A DNA stretch of 37,272 nucleotides from a virus (lineage: Duplodnaviria; Heunggongvirae; Uroviricota; Caudoviricetes). How positions within the stretch are numbered: the stretch's first letter is position 1; the number at the start of each line of letters is the position of its first letter. Under the pieces are notes generated by a model. The model had not been told where the DNA came from. It made no database searches and worked only from the letters and a program-made list of their open reading frames with translations. A program made the translations under genes and the position numbers. Shown here piece after piece: positions 16,665-37,272 of this stretch. The stretch covers positions 1 to 37,272 of the IMG/VR virus record IMGVR_UViG_2917403263_000004. One strand, given 5' to 3'.

Positions 16665-17134
16665 GGCATCACCTGACAGTGAAGCTGATGTGCCTGAGCC
16701 ACCCAGATTTCAGGTTTTTCCAGCCGGTAACGTTTTCCGCCTCTGGGGATGGGGCCGTTTTCATCCTCAATCAGGGTGATGGGATCAACCAGCGGCAGAC
16801 TGATTTCCAGCCATGCCACTTCATTTTCATCATCCACTTCGACGTCCACGGCTGGCGCATCCGGTGTCAGGCGCTGTCGCAGGTCGCCGCCGTTGTCTGC
16901 CAGCCAGGCTTCAACCAGAGAAAACACCAAATCCGGATCGAGCTGACGATAGGGCCATGCGTCCCATCGCAGAAAAGCCGTATATTTTCTGGCCTGCGTA
17001 CATAACTGCCCGTGCCCCAGCGACTTTGTGAGCGGAACGAGCGTGATATCATCCATGTCACTGGTGAACGGAATGCGTGCGCGTGCCGGCAGATTGTTTT
17101 CAATGAATGCCGTCAGGCTTGCGAGTTGCGTCAT
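16661..17134 (-). CDS. Putative tail completion protein (gpR-like)
   Basis: 157 aa. ATGA-type overlap with the downstream gene. Located right after the head-completion gene, as R is in P2-like phages. Confidence 0.4.
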   Translation of the reverse strand: MTQLASLTAFIENNLPARARIPFTSDMDDITLVPLTKSLGHGQLCTQARKYTAFLRWDAWPYRQLDPDLVFSLVEAWLADNGGDLRQRLTPDAPAVDVEVDDENEVAWLEISLPLVDPITLIEDENGPIPRGGKRYRLEKPEIWVAQAHQLHCQVMP

Positions 17135-26846: not shown

Positions 26847-29326
26847 TCAGAAAGCACGGTAACAGGGGTTTTCATGGTGTTCTGGTCCTGCTGAAGTGTG
26901 GATGCCAGGCGTGCGGCGGCTTCGGGGTCTCGATGCCCCCAGCTGTTCCAGATAGCTGGCGACCGGGTTATGGCGGATCTCCGTGCTGCTTACGCCGTGA
27001 TTACGGCTCAGGCGCTGCCAGAGCTGCGTGATTCGGCTGTCCGGGCGGGTATCCGGTTTGCGTACAATTTCAAATCCCTGCGGTGCAATGATGCTGCCGT
27101 CAACGTACAGACTGCCGCCCCGTAACAGGTGCTGCATCTGCTGTTCACCGATATGCAGGCCGAGAGATTCAGCAGACTCCCGCCATTCTTTAGCGAGTAA
27201 CTCATGGTTATCAGGCAAAGGCCACGGTGTTGGCCGTTCTTTCGGCTGTTCTGTCCCGTTGTTGTCCGTTTCCTGTACATGGGGACAGTTATTGCCACGA
27301 GTCCAAGGGGCGGCAGGGCCGCCCTGAAGGTCAAAACCATTTTCGCGGGCGCTGTCTTCCGCTTCCGGTTTACGTCTTACCAGCTTCCAGTTATCCGGGT
27401 GCGTGCACACGCGGGAAGATTCCCCGATGAGCGGCGACCAGATCCCGTAAATCTGTACACTCTGCTCGCCGTAATCGTTCAGCTCATCTGCGAGGTCGTA
27501 GGCGGTGCGAATCAGGTAGTCTTTACGTGGAACAAGTACGCCGCCCTGTTTTTCAATGTAGGAGGCAAAACACCCGGCATCGGCGGCAGCGAGTACCGCA
27601 TCCATTGCGTCATCCTTCAGCCGTTGCGGGCCTTCCGGGTTGCGTGCCATCTGGCTGGCAAGGCGGCGCAGTTCACGCCATACCTGACGGGAGGGGATGC
27701 CAAAGAACTGGAACTGGCGGACCCGATGAAGGCGCGCCCAGCCGATGGCGCGCTCCACGCTCTCGGCCATTGATTTTCCGGTTTCGTGGTCAACGCGTGG
27801 TTTGCCCGTTTTCGGATCGATTCCATCCACGGCGCGGCTGTCCAGGTTTTTTCCGATGTAGGTGGCGATGTAGCTGGTTGGCGTGCCTTTGGAGCCGTCG
27901 ACGTACTCCACCTTAAAGCGCGGAGTAATATCATTGCCCAGCTCGTGGCGGTCTTCCTGAATGGCAATATCGCGGGTGATGGCCACGATGCTGTCGATTT
28001 CTTCCGGATGAGCAAAGACCATCATATGCCAGTGCACGGTGCCGTCATGGTGAGGCTCCACCGTGCGGATGCCATACCAGCGCAGGCCGTCGCGGTTCAG
28101 TTTTTGCGGACCGCCGCAAAAAACGTGTTAACCAGGTAATCGCTGGAGTCGCGCATGGTGGCCCCGTTCCATTTGGGATTCGGATGACCGTTCTCTGTTG
28201 TGGCGTGGTATTTTGACGGGCAGGTGACAGTCAGAAACACCGCTTTGTCGCCACGGGCTTCGGCCAGAAGTTCCAGTCCCTTCATGGTGGCCATCATTTC
28301 TGCCTTACGGTGAACCGGGTTACTTACTCCCGCGTAATACACTGTCTCGAGATCAATCGTGAAGCCGTCTTCGTTTTCCAGTTCGAAGCTCTTCAGGAAG
28401 TCGCGGGTTTTCTCGCGCTGTGCGCGAAACTCGCTTAACGCGTCCTGGCTCAGATAGGGTGATGTTTTTCTGGAAACCAGACAGGCGGCGCGGAGTTGTT
28501 CTTCTCTCCACTCGCAACGTAACAGCCACAGTTTGCGTTTCCACCAGTCCGCACAGGTCAGGCGGAGGATTGCGCCCGGCAGCAGTTCCGTATCCGGATC
28601 GCTCTTGTTCAGGGCTTCGTAATGTGGCGGCATGATGTGCAGGCGTAATGCGATACGAGCCAGCATCCGGTAAGCCTTCAACATTACATCCATGGTCAGC
28701 TCGCCATCTCTGGCACCAAAGCCATCGCAGAGTGTTTCGAAGGTGCTGCTGAACATCGCCGCGGTCATGGTGGCCAGCGTCTGTATCTGGTGCTTGTTGA
28801 GCTGCGGCAGGTAAAGCAAATCGTCCAGGCGTTCGCGCCCGGCAAGGGAGCGATAACCCGGTGTCAGCCAGCGTCCGTCAGTGCGATCCAGACGTTCGAA
28901 TATTTTGCGCAGGGTTCCGCGTGCATAGCGTTCCGCCTGCCAGCTCTTTTTGCCTTTCTGGCGATCGGCTTCCTGTTTTTTGCGCAGGAAGGAGAGGTGG
29001 CGAATAAGCGGATCGCGCAGATAGGACGGCAGCAGGCGCAGCGAGGCCATGGCTTCATCCACCGCGCCGCGTGCCTGCTTTCTGGCGTCTCCTGCCAGTG
29101 TGATGGTTTTGTCCTGTTTTTCCTGTGCGTCCAGGCTTTTATTAATCAGGTTGCCCAGCGGCGTGGCGGAGAACGCCGCATCAGCCATTTCCTGGCGGCG
29201 CTCGTTCTCTACCCGGTAGGCATCCAGCCAGGAGGAAAGCGCGGATTCAGGAGCGGGGATCCCCGTTCCTTCACGCCCCACTGCGTGGCGCGGTTGTTGC
29301 CAGTCCCTGATGTACTCTGCCGTCAT
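26847..29326 (-). pseudogene. Replication initiation protein gpA (rolling-circle HUH endonuclease), split by a 1-nt frameshift
   Basis: Two track ORFs (28097..29326 and 26847..28061) in different frames. The C-terminal part carries HUH and catalytic-Tyr motifs (GTVHWHMMVFAHPEE, YIATYIGK). The frames join if one A is added to the minus-strand A5 run (plus T5 at 28101..28105): ...FFAAVRKK-LNRDGLRWYGIRTVEPHHDG. Confidence 0.7.
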
Positions 29327-33326: not shown

Positions 33327-33791
33327 TTATTTAACTCCCGTGCCGGAGATTTTCTCTGGCACATTTCCGACCTCAATAACCATGTTGTCACTGCTTAAAA
33401 TTTGTCGATAAAGCTCAAAGATTTCTTTGGCGGGGAAACGGAGCGCAACGCCGTATATTGGTTCTAAAATCATTCCAATCGTTTCTTTGACACCATCTCG
33501 ACAAAAATGACCGTATTCATCATCAGGATGCAGGGTAACATTTTTCAAATCTTCGCCATTCTGAAGCTTTGATTTAAATGCCATCAGGTCAGCGAACGTT
33601 CTGTGTAATTCGTGGTAGTCAATGCTGATTTCAACCTGTGGTTTGCCCGGAAAAACCAGCAAAAGCTTCTGGTGTGGCTTTTCGTTTTTCAGGGTTTCCA
33701 GTCGTTCCAGTAGTGCTTTGTCTTCGTAGTTTGTCATTTCAAAGCCCCAGCCACAGCAATCATGCGTCTCGCTATTCTTTCGGGCGAGCAA
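33327..33791 (-). CDS. Hypothetical early protein (154 aa)
   Basis: Second gene of the early operon. No motif recognised. Confidence 0.45.
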   Translation of the reverse strand: MLARKNSETHDCCGWGFEMTNYEDKALLERLETLKNEKPHQKLLLVFPGKPQVEISIDYHELHRTFADLMAFKSKLQNGEDLKNVTLHPDDEYGHFCRDGVKETIGMILEPIYGVALRFPAKEIFELYRQILSSDNMVIEVGNVPEKISGTGVK

Positions 33792-33818: not shown

Positions 33819-34346
33819 TTATGATAAATCGCTCTCGTGATCTCTGCGTTTTTCCAGTTTTGAACTTCTACCCATATAAACCCGTTTTCCGTTAACGGTC
33901 TGGCAATCTTCTTTGTCGACTGGGGCGAACTTTCTTTTCTGGCGGTCATACGTCCAGTAACTTTTCCAGTTGTGCCATTCTGGGGGTTCGCACTCTGGTA
34001 GCTCATCAGCCAACTTGTCCCACTCTTTGGCGTTAAACCACCATACGCCGTCTGAGTTTTCATCTTCTGGATTAGTGCGTGTTTTATGTCCTGGCATTTG
34101 TCCGCGAGCGACGGCAGTGCGAAGTGCCAGTTTTGTTAGCCCGACATACGCAGCGCCTTTTTCTAGGGAGCAAAGCCCGGCGATTGGTCCGTCCAGCCGC
34201 AAAGTTGCCCCCTTTTTGTAGGTGCGGCTTTGCTTGCTTTCCTGATGTTCATCATCGTTGGCGGCATCAGCGGAATCGCTAATACCGTCGCTTTTCTGGG
34301 GGTGTTGGGTGTCAGATAACTCTTTATCGGCAATGATGTCCCGCAT
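33819..34346 (-). CDS. Cox-like excisionase / early-promoter regulator with C-terminal extension
   Basis: First gene of the leftward early operon, divergent from C. HTH-like GAAYVGLTKLALRTAVARGQMPG followed by GVWWFNAKEWDKL, resembling P2 Cox (AVRRMIDKGKLP ... EYWVYLPAWNNGLK). 175 aa versus 91 aa for P2 Cox. Confidence 0.5.
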   Translation of the reverse strand: MRDIIADKELSDTQHPQKSDGISDSADAANDDEHQESKQSRTYKKGATLRLDGPIAGLCSLEKGAAYVGLTKLALRTAVARGQMPGHKTRTNPEDENSDGVWWFNAKEWDKLADELPECEPPEWHNWKSYWTYDRQKRKFAPVDKEDCQTVNGKRVYMGRSSKLEKRRDHESDLS

Positions 34347-34407
34347 TTGTTATCCTCTTGCGTTGGTGCGCTTGTCGCGCCTTATGAATGTTTGTTTGGG
34401 TTTGTTA

Positions 34408-34427
34408 ACTTCACCTTGTGGTGAAGT
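34408..34427. promoter_or_regulatory. Candidate operator in the C/cox divergent promoter region
   Basis: Perfect inverted repeat ACTTCACC-ttgt-GGTGAAGT in the 103-bp region between the cox-like start (34346) and the C start (34450). Confidence 0.45.
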
Positions 34428-34449
34428 GAGAATAGAGGATACTCATCGT

Positions 34450-34791
34450 ATGGTGAACATGTCAAGAGATTACGCCAAAAAACTAAAGGCAATCAGAAAC
34501 GCGGAAAAACTTACACAATCTCAGTTTTCGCAAGTAACAGGGGTTTCTGTAGGGACTATAGGAAATTATGAGTCTGGATATAAACCTGCGCGAATTGAGG
34601 TTGTAGAAAAAGTAATCCAAGTCGAGCGATTCGAAAAATACACTATGTGGATACTTCACGACAAAACATTTCCCGCTGCCGGGCAGGTTGCCCCGGCTCT
34701 CTCTCTTGATGGCTCTATTCAGTCGGAGGGCGATCAGGTTTCAATCGGCATTACCCAAAAATCACCCCGATCAGGCCGCAATGTTGGCTGA
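34450..34791 (+). CDS. Immunity repressor (P2 C-like)
   Basis: MVNMSRDYAKKLKAIRNAEKLTQSQFSQVTGVSVGTIGNYESG ... FEKYTMWILHDKTFPAAGQVAPALSLDG parallels P2 C (recalled: ...QQLADLTGVPYGTLSYYESG...FTKYTLWFMTNQIAPESGQIAPALAHFG). Start set at internal ATG 34450. Confidence 0.75.
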   Translation: MVNMSRDYAKKLKAIRNAEKLTQSQFSQVTGVSVGTIGNYESGYKPARIEVVEKVIQVERFEKYTMWILHDKTFPAAGQVAPALSLDGSIQSEGDQVSIGITQKSPRSGRNVG

Positions 34792-34860
34792 CTTTACACA
34801 TTGAGCGGATTACATCTCGCAAGGAGTATTTAGTTAATTTATCCGTTGGATGGGCTAATC

Positions 34861-35854
34861 ATGTCGATTAAGCAACTCAAAGACGGACGTTATCAGGTCG
34901 ATGTCAGACCGCAGGGGGCGGAAGGAAAGCGGATTCGAAAAATCTTCGCCCTGAAATCAAAGGCTCAGGAGTTTGAGAAATATGTGTTGCAGAACTTCCA
35001 TGACAAGCCATGGCAGGCTAAGCCAGCTGATCAGCGGCGATTATCAGAGCTGCTTGATGCGTGGTGGATGCTTGACGGGCGTAATCAGGCTTACGGGGAT
35101 AGCTACAGGGTCAGGCTAGAGAAGGTTATTCGTGAAATGGGAGATCCTCGTGCCAGTCATATGACGCGAAAATTTATGCTCGAGTATCGGTCAGAGAAAT
35201 TACAGGCCGGATTAATGCCGTCCAGCATTAATCGTGATTTATGCGTTCTGTCTACCATGTTCACGGTGCTGATTGAAGCTGAGGTCTTTCACAATGCGAA
35301 CCCTGTACGCGGTATACGCAAACTGAAAGTTCAGAACACGGAAATGGCCTTTCTTTCTGATGATGAGATTGAACGGCTTCTTGAGCGACTGGAGGGGGGA
35401 TGCGCGTCGTGTTGCCATTCTGTGTCTTTCTACTGGTGCCCGGTGGAGTGAAGCATCGGAACTACGTGGAGAGCATATCGTTGGCAACCGGGTGACGTTT
35501 TTTAACACCAAAAACGGAAAATCCCGCTCAGTTCCTGTGGCGGATTCGGTTGTGCCTCTGATTAAAACCCGTCGGACGGGGTTGTTGTATCAGGTTAATT
35601 ATCTGGAGTTCCGGGAGATTCTTCAGGAGGTGAAACCGGATTTGCCGAAGGGGCAGGCTACGCATGTCATGCGTCATACATTTGCCACACACTTTATGAT
35701 GAATGGTGGAAATATTGTTACGTTACAACGAATCCTTGGGCACGCCACGATTCAGCAGACAATGACGTACGCTCATTTTTCGCCGGACTTCTTACAGGAC
35801 GCGATCAACTTTAATCCGTTGGCTGAAAGTGTCCATAAACTGTCCATCGATTAG
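34861..35854 (+). pseudogene. int: P2-type tyrosine integrase, frameshifted
   Basis: N-terminus MSIKQLKDGRYQVDV and C-terminal RHTFATHFMMNGGNIVTLQRILGHATIQQTMTYAHF parallel P2 Int. The reading frame shifts +1 at the G6 run 35394..35399 (track ORFs 34846..35451 and 35360..35854); a G5 run would restore ...LERLEG-DARRVAILCLSTGARW. Confidence 0.75.
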
Positions 35855-35940
35855 TTATAATTTGTGTTGATTTGTTCCCCCTGTTTGGGCTTATTCATTG
35901 AAAAATAAGTAAATCATCAGGGGGAGCAAGAAACCTTAAA

Positions 35941-35959
35941 GCGCCTGCGGGCGCTTTTT
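35941..35959. terminator. Hairpin between convergent int and serS (probable bidirectional terminator)
   Basis: GCGCC-tgcg-GGCGC followed by TTTTT on the plus strand and preceded by AAA, about 20 nt downstream of the serS stop. Confidence 0.5.
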
Positions 35960-35979
35960 AGATTCAGAATAGTTGGATA

Positions 35980-37272
<1,293 letters not shown>

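What the first reader, a model, noticed from the sequence alone, without database searches (positions are those of the whole stretch)
34347..34449. Compact lysogeny switch with a perfect 8-4-8 palindrome between the divergent C and cox-like genes
ACTTCACC-ttgt-GGTGAAGT at 34408..34427 sits in the 103-bp region between the two divergent starts, preceded by GTTTGTT-type direct repeats. P2 C binds direct repeats while 186 CI binds inverted repeats, so the operator geometry here may tell which immunity type this phage has.
Basis: seen in the sequence. Interest (0 to 1): 0.4.

Follow-up and report, generated by a model that had tools for sequence, protein, structure and literature searches.

The report
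Palindromic operator of a P2-type switch
The palindrome is very probably the main DNA site where this prophage's P2-type repressor sits to keep the lytic genes off; unlike the non-palindromic direct repeats reported for phage P2 itself, this site is symmetric, although the switch is otherwise an ordinary P2-type one.

Summary
ACTTCACC-ttgt-GGTGAAGT lies at 34408-34427, in the 103-bp spacer between a Cox-family gene (- strand, ATG 34346) and an HTH repressor gene (+ strand, ATG 34450).

The repressor is a P2 C homologue: PDB 2XCJ/2L49 E 7e-15, 47% identical to WPhi C, no alignment to 186 CI. It is identical to the C of the UTI89 prophage PhiECO5, "immunity class IX" of Nilsson 2011. I found no description of its operator.

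In 12 distinct homoimmune spacers the 7-bp arms CTTCACC/GGTGAAG never vary, while the centre and flanks do. Two heteroimmune relatives carry different palindromes at the same place, together with different recognition helices.

In each type the right arm recurs once, in direct orientation, 32-34 bp away. That copy fills the spacer of a strongly predicted early promoter (-35 TTGACA 34465-34460, -10 TATCCT 34441-34436). The two sites therefore flank the -10, as in P2 and WPhi.

The GTTTGTT repeats are shared by all immunity types, phased at 10 bp, and recur just after the int stop. They are probably Cox boxes, not repressor sites.

Operator geometry does not distinguish P2 from 186 types. Nothing was tested experimentally, and Pc is not located.

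The parts
33819..34346 (-). cox-like gene (175 aa), first gene of the early (lytic) operon
   Evidence: Pfam Phage_Cox 29.0 bits against a 27.5 cut-off, residues 58-129. phrog_23196 E 3.8e-103. Relatives are annotated 'Cox family DNA-binding protein'. The N-terminus MRDxIADKELSD is conserved. The gene is about twice the length of P2 Cox.
34351..34358 (-). Shine-Dalgarno of cox-like gene (AGAGGATA on the - strand)
   Evidence: Read directly from the sequence. The same 8-mer serves the C gene on the other strand (inverted repeat I4).
34372..34411 (+). Four TTGT/TTAT boxes at exact 10-bp phase (34372, 34382, 34392, 34402).
   Evidence: Shared by all three immunity types. One relative (L031) has an extra 10-bp unit. 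The pattern TTGT-N6-TTGT-N6-TTGT with up to 1 mismatch occurs only here and after the int stop in the whole window, against 0.4 expected. P2 cox-boxes are 10-11 bp apart, overlap Pc and also occur in attP (PMC3936717; P2 record).
34408..34427 (.). Palindromic operator (conserved core CTTCACC-N4-GGTGAAG, 34409-34426). It lies about +3 to +22 of the predicted early promoter, the position of O2 in P2.
   Evidence: The arms are invariant in 12 distinct homoimmune spacers while 28 of 103 spacer columns vary. It is replaced by AAAGATA(N3)-N4-(N3)TATCTTT or TGTCG-N6-CGACA in heteroimmune relatives.
34436..34441 (-). Predicted -10 of the early promoter Pe (TATCCT). Its complement is the Shine-Dalgarno AGGA of the C gene.
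   Evidence: It is the best-scoring promoter on either strand, at the same position in all three immunity types (TATCCT, TAACCT, TAAAAT).
34442..34458 (.). Second, weaker operator copy ACTCATC-gtat-GGTGAAC. It fills the Pe -35/-10 spacer and overlaps the C start codon, the position of O1 in P2.
   Evidence: 10 of 14 arm positions match the palindrome, centre to centre 32 bp. In each immunity type the type's own right-arm word recurs exactly once, direct, 32/33/34 bp away, and never in the other types' switch region. The one stray GGTGAA, in type 3, lies outside the operator region. Invariant in all type-1 spacers.
34460..34465 (-). Predicted -35 of Pe (TTGACA), inside the first codons of the C gene
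   Evidence: TGTCAA is invariant in all three immunity types. It is also present at the C start in P2, where it is annotated as the Pe -35, in WPhi and in PhiR44_2.
34450..34791 (+). C-type immunity repressor gene (113 aa, HTH_3)
   Evidence: PDB 2L49/2XCJ (P2 C) E 7e-15. 47% identical to WPhi C, E 1e-30. 35% identical to P2 C, E 1e-22. Pfam HTH_3. 100% identical to the UTI89 prophage C, which is PhiECO5, class IX (PMC3448106).
34861..35854 (+). Integrase gene, co-oriented with C. It is interrupted by a +1 frameshift in a G run.
   Evidence: Relatives have an intact 993-nt int.
35830..35846 (+). Two TGTCCA repeats 11 bp apart in the 3' end of int. They are candidate Int arm-type sites.
   Evidence: Sequence. 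The P2-type arm consensus is tgTGGaCa (PMC3448106). In P2 the P' arm Int site overlaps the int 3' end.
35852..35889 (+). Phased ATTTGT / ATTTGT / CTGTTTGGG boxes immediately after the int stop. They are candidate Cox boxes of the att arm.
   Evidence: Conserved in relatives. In P2 the annotated Cox-binding site lies at the same place.

Best explanation
The palindrome is the principal operator of a P2 C-family immunity repressor in a P2-type C/Cox switch. Inferred mechanism: a symmetric C dimer binds CTTCACC-N4-GGTGAAG. The arm centres are 11 bp apart, which places them in two successive major grooves. The site lies just downstream of the -10 of the early promoter Pe. A second dimer binds the weaker copy ACTCATC-gtat-GGTGAAC 32 bp (three helical turns) away. 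That copy fills the Pe -35/-10 spacer and overlaps the C start codon. Together the two dimers bracket the Pe -10 and shut off the leftward early operon (cox-like gene, then replication genes), which maintains lysogeny and gives superinfection immunity. The cox-proximal half of the spacer carries TTGT boxes phased at 10 bp. These are probably bound by the Cox-family protein to repress the C promoter, and the same kind of boxes next to int would serve excision. Shown here: the sequence features, their conservation and covariation, and the homology of the proteins. Inferred: actual binding, the promoter positions, and cooperativity.
For: (1) Homology. The repressor matches P2 C (PDB 2L49/2XCJ, E 7e-15), is 35% identical to P2 C and 47% identical to WPhi C.
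(2) Purifying selection on the arms only. In 10 distinct homoimmune spacers, 28 of 103 columns vary and none of the 14 arm columns does (P about 0.008; locally 0.003). Metagenome contigs added two further variants, again with intact arms. The first spacer base takes all four values.
(3) Covariation with the protein. Heteroimmune relatives keep the left half of the spacer. At the same position they carry AAAGATAACC-AAAA-GGTTATCTTT or TGTCGAAATTACGACA, with recognition helices SLATIRNY or PVNTQRYY instead of SVGTIGNY.
(4) A second site. Each type's own right arm recurs once, in direct orientation, 32-34 bp away.
(5) Promoter. The best promoter prediction on either strand, in every type, is -35 TTGACA, 18-bp spacer, -10 TAnnnT, with the two sites flanking the -10.
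(6) Layout. It matches the annotated P2 record position by position: Pe -35 over the C start, O1 in the spacer, O2 after the -10. It also matches WPhi, whose half-sites are 34 bp apart and flank the -10 (PMC1904268). The WPhi half-site TATTGGTGAC shares GGTGA with this arm.
(7) Structure. The P2 C crystal structure is a symmetric dimer set to bind two consecutive major grooves and resembles binders of palindromes (PMC2995052).
(8) Cox boxes.
Against: There is no binding, footprint or transcript-start data for this phage or any close relative, so the promoters are predictions only. The -10 TATCCT is a 4/6 match. The second site matches only 10 of 14 arm positions and partly encodes the N-terminus of C, so part of its conservation could be due to coding. 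P2-family C proteins are described as binders of non-palindromic direct repeats (PMC2995052, PMC1904268), so symmetric binding is an extrapolation. The hairpin would also form in both transcripts, so part of the symmetry could serve RNA. Pc could not be placed: the two candidates are weak and neither is conserved in all relatives. The Cox-box covariation test was inconclusive.
Confidence: 0.8

Rival explanations
1. The palindrome acts mainly as an RNA hairpin. It would sit at the extreme 5' end of the early (leftward) transcript and/or in the leader of the C transcript, stabilising the mRNA or modulating translation, rather than being a protein-binding site.
For: The 87-nt leftward leader folds with the palindrome as an 8-bp (extendable to 11-bp) 5' stem-loop: -19.1 kcal/mol, z -4.3, 0 of 200 shuffles as stable. 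The hairpin also forms in the rightward RNA. In type-2 relatives the inner arm positions change on both sides while symmetry is kept, ACC/GGT against CTC/GAG.
Against: A hairpin does not explain why the right arm alone recurs 32-34 bp away in each type. It does not explain why arm sequence tracks the recognition helix. It does not explain why the arm sequence is invariant within a type, with no compensatory changes. The type-3 dyad has only 5-bp arms and a 6-nt centre, a poor hairpin. There is no Rfam match. The inner-triplet changes in type 2 coincide with T36A and Q25E changes in the HTH. This remains possible as a secondary role.
Confidence: 0.1
2. The repressor recognises only the directly repeated word (nGGTGAA at 34420 and 34452), exactly as described for P2 and WPhi. 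On this view the left arm of the palindrome is contacted non-specifically or belongs to another function, such as the -10 region or start of Pc.
For: The family is reported to use direct repeats with one specific and one less specific monomer contact (PMC2995052). The direct repeat spacing of 32 bp is close to the 34 bp of WPhi. A weak Pc candidate has its -10 (TAACTT, 34406-34411) over the left arm.
Against: The left arm is as invariant as the right arm in 12 spacers, although the 2 bases before it and the 4 between the arms vary. The left arm changes in step with the right arm in all three immunity types and in the type-2 subtypes, keeping dyad symmetry each time. The -10-like hexamer over the left arm is not conserved: it is TTTCTT in UTI89.
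Confidence: 0.08
3. The palindrome is a chance inverted repeat or a transcription terminator with no regulatory role.
For: 24 perfect palindromes with 8-bp arms exist in the 37-kb window, so such repeats are not rare there.
Against: Markov simulations give only about 6 per window and 0.017 per 103 bp. The arms are conserved and covary across about 50 loci. No T-run follows on either strand and the terminator scan does not list it.
Confidence: 0.02

Closest known systems
Phage WPhi C/Cox switch (P2-type, immunity class III)
   Same: The C proteins are homologous (47% identity). There are two operator copies in direct orientation about three helical turns apart (34 bp against 32 bp), flanking the -10 of Pe (PMC1904268). 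The Pe -35 TTGACA lies next to the C start. The half-site TATTGGTGAC shares the GGTGA core with the arm here. The int-C / cox gene order is the same.
   Different: WPhi sites are described as 10-bp direct repeats. Here the promoter-distal site is a perfect dyad. By my reading, the WPhi site next to the C start is itself a near-dyad, GTCACC-AATA-GGTTAC, but this is not described in the papers read. The spacer is 152 bp in WPhi and 103 bp here. WPhi Cox is 90 aa, against 175 aa here.
Phage P2 C/Cox switch (PDB 2XCJ; annotated record NC_001895)
   Same: The C proteins are homologous (35% identity). The layout is the same: Pe -35 over the C start, one operator in the Pe spacer and one just after the -10, cox-boxes at 10-11 bp phase over the cox-proximal half, and a Cox site right after the int stop.
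   Different: P2 half-sites (ATCTAAAC twice, 22 bp apart) have no dyad partner. The box sequences differ: TTAAAG/CNCA in P2 against TTGT-type here. Here C carries a 17-aa longer C-terminal tail and Cox is twice as long.
UTI89 prophage PhiECO5, 'immunity class IX' (Nilsson et al. 2011, PMC3448106); P88-like prophages (Xuanwuvirus) at serS-dmsA
   Same: The C protein is identical to that of UTI89. The spacer is the same length, 103 bp, with the same operator core. The cox-like and int genes are homologous.
   Different: That paper only proposed the class from the protein and spacer sequences, and no operator was defined. In the window the outer arm pair makes the palindrome 8-4-8 rather than 7-4-7. 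P88-like isolates in the phage collection carry the type-2 repressor (72.6% identity). In the window the prophage lies in the opposite orientation and in a non-coli host.
Phage 186 CI/Apl switch
   Same: The operator is an inverted repeat. An array of excisionase (Apl) direct repeats lies one helical turn apart between convergent promoters (PMC7498355).
   Different: The repressor is unrelated, with no alignment at E<=100. There is no second CI domain. No distal FL/FR-like sites were found. No cII-like gene was recognised downstream of cox.
C.Esp1396I-type controller proteins and lambdoid repressors (P22 c2, 434 cI)
   Same: These are small HTH dimers on dyad-symmetric sites, with two dimer sites side by side bound cooperatively. 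Massad et al. name them as the structural neighbours of P2 C.
   Different: They share no specific sequence relationship with this repressor beyond the HTH_3 fold, and the site spacing differs (15 bp in C.Esp1396I against 32 bp here).

Membership tests
P2-type C/Cox transcriptional switch (P2 C repressor family) | Immunity repressor homologous to P2 C, about 100 aa, with a single N-terminal HTH | tested here: met
   113 aa. PDB 2L49/2XCJ E 7e-15, aligned over residues 4-89. BLASTP against P2 C E 1e-22 and against WPhi C E 1e-30. Pfam HTH_3. phrog_147 E 3e-28.
P2-type C/Cox transcriptional switch (P2 C repressor family) | Gene order int-C on one strand, with a divergent cox as first gene of the early operon | tested here: met
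   ORF map. Same order in annotated relatives and in P2 and WPhi. The Cox call rests on Pfam Phage_Cox at 29.0 bits, just above the 27.5 cut-off, and on PGAP names. There is no phmmer hit to P2 Cox in the PDB.
P2-type C/Cox transcriptional switch (P2 C repressor family) | Two operator copies in direct orientation, 2-3 helical turns apart, bracketing the -10 (or -35) of Pe | tested here: met
   GGTGAA at 34420 and 34452, 32 bp apart. The sites lie either side of the predicted -10 at 34441-34436. The promoter is predicted, not mapped.
P2-type C/Cox transcriptional switch (P2 C repressor family) | Operator half-sites are non-palindromic (the property stressed for P2, Hy dis, WPhi and classes I-VII) | tested here: not met
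   The main site is a perfect dyad, conserved as 7-4-7. Heteroimmune relatives also carry dyads. Several other family members do as well: PhiR44_2, Shae_phiSM, and WPhi in part.
P2-type C/Cox transcriptional switch (P2 C repressor family) | Convergent Pe and Pc promoters with overlapping transcripts | tested here: inconclusive
   Pe is strongly predicted (13.3 bits). Pc has only weak, non-conserved candidates: -35 TTGGTG 34363 with -10 GAATGT 34386, or -35 ATGAAT 34384 with -10 TAACTT 34406. Transcript mapping is needed.
P2-type C/Cox transcriptional switch (P2 C repressor family) | C actually binds the operator and represses Pe; Cox represses Pc | not testable with these tools
   Requires EMSA or footprinting and reporter assays.
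186-type CI/Apl/CII switch | Two-domain CI repressor of about 190 aa, homologous to 186 CI | tested here: not met
   No BLASTP alignment at E<=100. No 186 CI chain appears among the PDB hits at E<=1.
186-type CI/Apl/CII switch | Inverted-repeat operators at pR plus distal flanking sites (FL, FR) | tested here: not met
   An inverted repeat is present. The only other match with up to 3 mismatches in 37 kb is at 16667, inside the late region, against 1.2 expected by chance.
186-type CI/Apl/CII switch | A cII establishment gene downstream of apl | tested here: inconclusive
   The next ORFs (33327-33791, which has no Pfam or PHROG family, and DUF4761) give no CII-like match. Absence is not proven.
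Cox/Apl-type recombination-directionality-factor box arrays | Several direct repeats phased at 10-11 bp | tested here: met
   TTGT or TTAT at 34372, 34382, 34392 and 34402. A relative has one extra 10-bp unit.
Cox/Apl-type recombination-directionality-factor box arrays | The same boxes both in the switch and in the att arm next to int | tested here: met
   The only other hit in the window is at 35852-35875, right after the int stop. It is conserved in relatives. The P2 Cox site is at the equivalent place.
Cox/Apl-type recombination-directionality-factor box arrays | Match to the P2 cox-box consensus TTAAAG/CNCA | tested here: not met
   The boxes here are TTGT/TTTG-type. A different sequence is plausible for a Cox that shares only a marginal Pfam match with P2 Cox.
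Cox/Apl-type recombination-directionality-factor box arrays | Boxes covary with the Cox protein | tested here: inconclusive
   In the lineage whose Cox is 70% identical, the switch boxes read TTTTGATGAn twice but the att-arm boxes are unchanged.

The most novel reading that the evidence does not exclude
P2 C-family repressors in general may bind dyad-symmetric sites of about 18 bp as symmetric dimers, with two such sites set in direct orientation about three turns apart. On this view the classical non-palindromic direct repeats of P2 are a degenerate derivative in which only one arm per site survives. The P88/PhiECO5 clade would then be a natural allelic series: three operator and recognition-helix pairs on an otherwise conserved scaffold. 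It could be used to settle how a symmetric P2 C dimer reads its DNA, a puzzle raised by the 2010 crystal structure.
Probability: 0.4. Interest if true: 0.5.

Novelty: new variant of a known kind. Interest (0 to 1): 0.35.

Why it matters
P2 C is a known exception: a symmetric HTH dimer said to read non-palindromic direct repeats. The crystal-structure paper noted that it looks like a binder of palindromes.

Here a close homologue has a cleanly dyad-symmetric operator. It keeps the P2/WPhi architecture of two sites about three turns apart bracketing the Pe -10.

The clade also offers three heteroimmune operator and recognition-helix pairs, plus subtypes, on a conserved background. That makes the recognition question testable with simple swaps.

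Practically, the analysis proposes an operator for immunity class IX, which is carried by UPEC UTI89-type prophages, and for the P88/ST131-type class. This helps predict superinfection immunity among these common E. coli prophages.

It also corrects a tempting shortcut: operator geometry alone does not tell P2-type from 186-type immunity.

Tried and rejected
- **Distal operators (186 FL/FR style).** A search for CTTCACC-N4-GGTGAAG with up to 3 mismatches found only one chance-level extra hit, at 16667.
- **Terminator.** No T-run follows the palindrome and the scan does not report it.
- **Known RNA family.** No Rfam match at E<=1 in 34100-34700.
- **Locating Pc.** A PWM scan of five representative spacers gave only weak candidates, none conserved in position and quality across all relatives. 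Analogy with P2 supports either of two candidates. Left unresolved.
- **Leaderless C transcript.** I considered a transcript starting at the second ATG (34459, which aligns with the P2 C start), activated from the palindrome. Rejected because the equivalent codon is TTG or CTG in the other immunity types, while the upstream ATG and its GAGG are conserved.
- **Structure of the Cox-like protein.** The single-sequence AlphaFold model had pLDDT 38.6 and was unusable, so no fold search was run.
- **Relatives from genome contigs.** The scan with the Cox alignment returned a single locus, in E. albertii. The viral contigs (33 loci) and E. coli genomes were the useful sources.
- **Covariation test of the Cox-box idea.** In the lineage with the 70%-identical Cox, the switch boxes differ but the att-arm boxes do not. 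Inconclusive.
- **Hidden dyads in P2 itself.** None found.

Full report
**1. Observation**

The sequence is as described. ACTTCACC (34408-34415), ttgt, and GGTGAAGT (34420-27) form a perfect 8-4-8 inverted repeat. It lies in the 103-bp spacer 34347-34449.

The spacer separates two ORFs:
- a 175-aa ORF on the - strand (34346..33819);
- a 113-aa ORF on the + strand (34450..34791).

The direct repeat GTTTGTTTGGGTTTGTT is at 34390-34406.

A perfect palindrome with 8-bp arms and a 0-8 bp spacer turns up in 0.3% of shuffles of the spacer. About 0.017 are expected per 103 bp from Markov simulations of the window. That is suggestive only. The weight of evidence comes from comparison with relatives.

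**2. The genes**

*The + strand ORF is a P2 C-family immunity repressor.*
- Its best solved relative is P2 C: 2L49/2XCJ, E 7e-15, residues 4-89 aligned to 1-86.
- It is 35% identical to P2 C (E 1e-22) and 47% identical to WPhi C (E 1e-30).
- It gives no alignment at all to 186 CI.
- It is 100% identical to the C of the UTI89 prophage. That prophage is PhiECO5 of Nilsson et al. 2011, who tentatively named it immunity class IX and left its function to be determined (PMC3448106).

*The - strand ORF is Cox-like.* It carries a marginal but above-threshold Pfam Phage_Cox domain, 29.0 against 27.5 bits. NCBI names its relatives "Cox family DNA-binding protein". It is twice the size of P2 Cox.

*Context.* An integrase gene follows C on the same strand. 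The - strand continues into DUF4761, DUF4754 and replication gene A homologues. The window also encodes a P2-family capsid, GPO scaffold and gpP-type terminase. The gene order is therefore the P2-type int-C / cox-early operon.

**3. Comparative anatomy of the spacer**

I collected about 50 related loci from E. coli genomes, E. albertii, IMG/VR contigs and metagenomes.

The cox-proximal 60 bp of the spacer are shared by all of them. The C-proximal 45 bp and the N-terminal HTH half of C come in three versions.

| Type | Found in | Site at the palindrome position | Recognition helix |
|---|---|---|---|
| 1 | window, UTI89 and others | CTTCACC-N4-GGTGAAG | SVGTIGNY |
| 2 | EC958/ST131, P88-like | AAAGATAACC-AAAA-GGTTATCTTT | SLATIRNY |
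| 3 | E. coli strain 48 | TGTCGAAATTACGACA | PVNTQRYY |

Within type 1, ten distinct spacers show 28 variable columns out of 103. None falls in the 14 arm columns (P about 0.008; 0.003 for the local 31-bp stretch). The two bases before the left arm, the three after the right arm and the central 4 bp all vary. The first central base takes all four values. Two further variants from metagenomes keep the arms as well. The conserved unit is therefore 7-4-7. The outer A/T pair that makes it 8-4-8 is found in the window and one other lineage only.

Within type 2, sub-variants change the three inner arm positions on both sides (ACC/GGT, ATC/GGT, CTC/GAG). These changes come with T36A and Q25E changes in the HTH.

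**4. A second site**

In every type, the type's own right-arm word recurs exactly once more, in direct orientation:
- type 1: GGTGAA at 34420 and 34452, 32 bp apart;
- type 2: 33 bp apart;
- type 3: 34 bp apart.

The heterologous words are absent from the switch region; the one stray GGTGAA, in type 3, lies outside the operator region.

In the window this second site is ACTCATC-gtat-GGTGAAC (34442-34458). It matches 10 of the 14 arm positions and overlaps the C start codon. The first codons of C are thus written by the operator: MVN, MVIL and MNST in the three types.

**5. Promoters**

*Pe.* The best sigma-70 match on either strand is leftward. A PWM scan places it at the same position in all three types (12.5-15.9 bits):
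- -35 TTGACA at 34465-34460;
- an 18-bp spacer;
- -10 TATCCT at 34441-34436.

TGTCAA is invariant even though it lies inside diverged coding sequence. The same hexamer sits at the C start of P2, where it is annotated as the Pe -35, of WPhi and of PhiR44_2.

The second site fills the -35/-10 spacer of this promoter. The palindrome begins 8 bp below the -10, at about +3 to +22.

This is the annotated P2 layout: O1 in the Pe spacer and O2 just after the -10. It is also the published WPhi layout: half-sites 34 bp apart flanking the -10 (PMC1904268). The WPhi half-site TATTGGTGAC shares GGTGA with the arm here.

*Pc.* I could not place the rightward C promoter. There are two weak candidates:
- -35 TTGGTG at 34363 with -10 GAATGT at 34386;
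- -35 ATGAAT at 34384 with -10 TAACTT at 34406, which resembles the CTCATGAAT region of P2 Pc.

Neither is conserved in every relative.

**6. Mechanism proposed**

Two C dimers bracket the Pe -10 and block the early operon.

The arm centres of the palindrome are 11 bp apart. [quoted passage not shown]

In P2 only one monomer per dimer is thought to read specific sequence. Here both monomers can do so at the main site. The second site keeps one good arm and one degenerate arm.

Binding, cooperativity and promoter positions are inferred, not shown.

**7. The GTTTGTT repeats**

These repeats are part of a series of TTGT/TTAT boxes at exact 10-bp phase: 34372, 34382, 34392 and 34402.

- They are shared by all three immunity types, so they do not determine immunity specificity.
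- One relative (L031) carries an extra 10-bp unit.
- The pattern TTGT-N6-TTGT-N6-TTGT, with up to 1 mismatch, occurs only three times in the window, against 0.4 expected. Two are overlapping hits here. The third is at 35852-35875, immediately after the int stop. I had looked there deliberately, because an excision factor should also bind the att arm.
- That stretch is conserved in relatives.
- It follows two TGTCCA repeats that resemble the P2-type Int arm consensus.
- In P2 the annotated Cox-binding site is at exactly that place. P2 cox-boxes are 10-11 bp apart and overlap Pc (PMC3936717). The Apl sites of 186 are likewise one turn apart between pR and pL.

I therefore read the repeats as Cox boxes, with confidence of about 0.55.

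A covariation test was inconclusive. In a lineage whose Cox is only 70% identical, the switch boxes read TTTTGATGAn twice, but the att-arm boxes are unchanged.

**8. Rivals**

- *RNA hairpin.* A hairpin would form at the 5' end of the early transcript, and it may be a side benefit. It does not explain the directly repeated single arm, the tracking of arm sequence with the recognition helix, or the weak type-3 stem.
- *Direct repeat only.* Recognition of the direct repeat alone is contradicted by the equal conservation and covariation of the left arm.
- *Chance or terminator.* Both are excluded by the conservation pattern and by the lack of a T-run.
- *Other checks.* There are no distal operators and no Rfam family.

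**9. Relation to what is known**

This is a member of the P2-type switch family by protein homology, gene order and operator placement. It is not a 186-type switch.

It departs from the property emphasised for P2, P2 Hy dis, WPhi and classes I-VII, that half-sites are non-palindromic direct repeats.

It is not alone in this. In the small sample I read:
- PhiR44_2 / Xuanwuvirus P884B11 has ATGCC-N6-GGCAT twice, 31 bp apart;
- Shae_phiSM has GATCA-CATA-TGATC at the C start;
- the WPhi site next to C reads GTCACC-AATA-GGTTAC;
- P2 itself has no dyad.

I found no paper describing the operators of class IX or of P88-like phages. The P88 paper does not mention operators or immunity, and "repressor" occurs only in its reference list.

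**10. Verdict**

Novelty is modest: a new variant of a well-known kind of switch. It has some value for the open question of how symmetric P2 C dimers read DNA.

Noticed in passing
window 35380-35440 (int, 34861-35854): The integrase gene has one extra G in a G run (GGAGGGGGGATG, against GGGGG or GGGT in relatives). This splits it into two ORFs (34846-35451 and 35360-35854). It is either a pseudogene, which would lock the prophage in place, or a homopolymer sequencing error.
   Followed up: partly
window 26847-29326, - strand: The replication gene A homologue is split into two ORFs. 28097-29326 matches GPA profile positions 1-229 and 26847-28061 matches 245-321. This is a second possible inactivating lesion, so the prophage may be decaying.
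   Followed up: no
window 35855-37272: The int end of the prophage abuts the 3' end of serS. In all E. coli relatives fetched at this site, the int end abuts dmsA, so the prophage lies in the opposite orientation in the same serS-dmsA gap. The junction lies in the palindromic serS terminator AAAGCGCC-TGCG-GGCGCTTT (35938-35957), and a symmetric core might allow integration either way. serS here is only 90-96.5% identical to all 5426 E. coli genomes, so the host is probably a non-coli Escherichia.
   Followed up: partly
window 900-25000: The late-gene region has almost no nucleotide match in 50,697 phage records (each match covers at most about 1% of the query). Its proteins are nonetheless P2-family (capsid, GPO scaffold, gpP terminase, portal). 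The regulatory module is P88/PhiECO5-like, but the structural module is not close to any isolated phage in that collection.
   Followed up: partly
window 34675-34791 (C residues 76-113): The C-terminal 38 residues of C (AGQVAPALSLDGSIQSEGDQVSIGITQKSPRSGRNVG) are nearly identical across the three heteroimmune types, while the HTH half diverges to 50-73% identity. The last ~17 residues are an extension absent from P2 and WPhi C. This could be a recombination boundary or a shared interaction or degradation tail.
   Followed up: no
L042 (WPhi NC_005056) 1357-1395; L047 (PhiR44_2) 630-700; L045 (Shae_phiSM) 640-690: Other P2 C-family switches also show dyads inside their direct-repeat operators. 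WPhi has GTCACC-AATA-GGTTAC next to the C start. PhiR44_2 / P884B11 has ATGCC-N6-GGCAT twice, 31 bp apart. Shae_phiSM has GATCA-CATA-TGATC. P2 itself has none.
   Followed up: partly
L031 (IMGVR_UViG_2541047944_000005), spacer: One type-2 relative has three instead of two copies of the 10-bp unit GGTTTGTTTT. This lengthens the spacer by exactly one helical turn.
   Followed up: no
window 34351-34358 and 34434-34441: Both divergent genes use the same 8-mer AGAGGATA as ribosome-binding site. The C-side copy is at the same time the complement of the predicted Pe -10, so one stretch would serve translation of C and transcription of cox.
   Followed up: no
L055 (E. coli SCU-115, NZ_CP054368.1) 690-2340: A lineage with a 70%-identical Cox and a type-2-like repressor is integrated at a different site, downstream of rraA, with a 996-nt int. 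It has the same att-arm boxes.
   Followed up: partly
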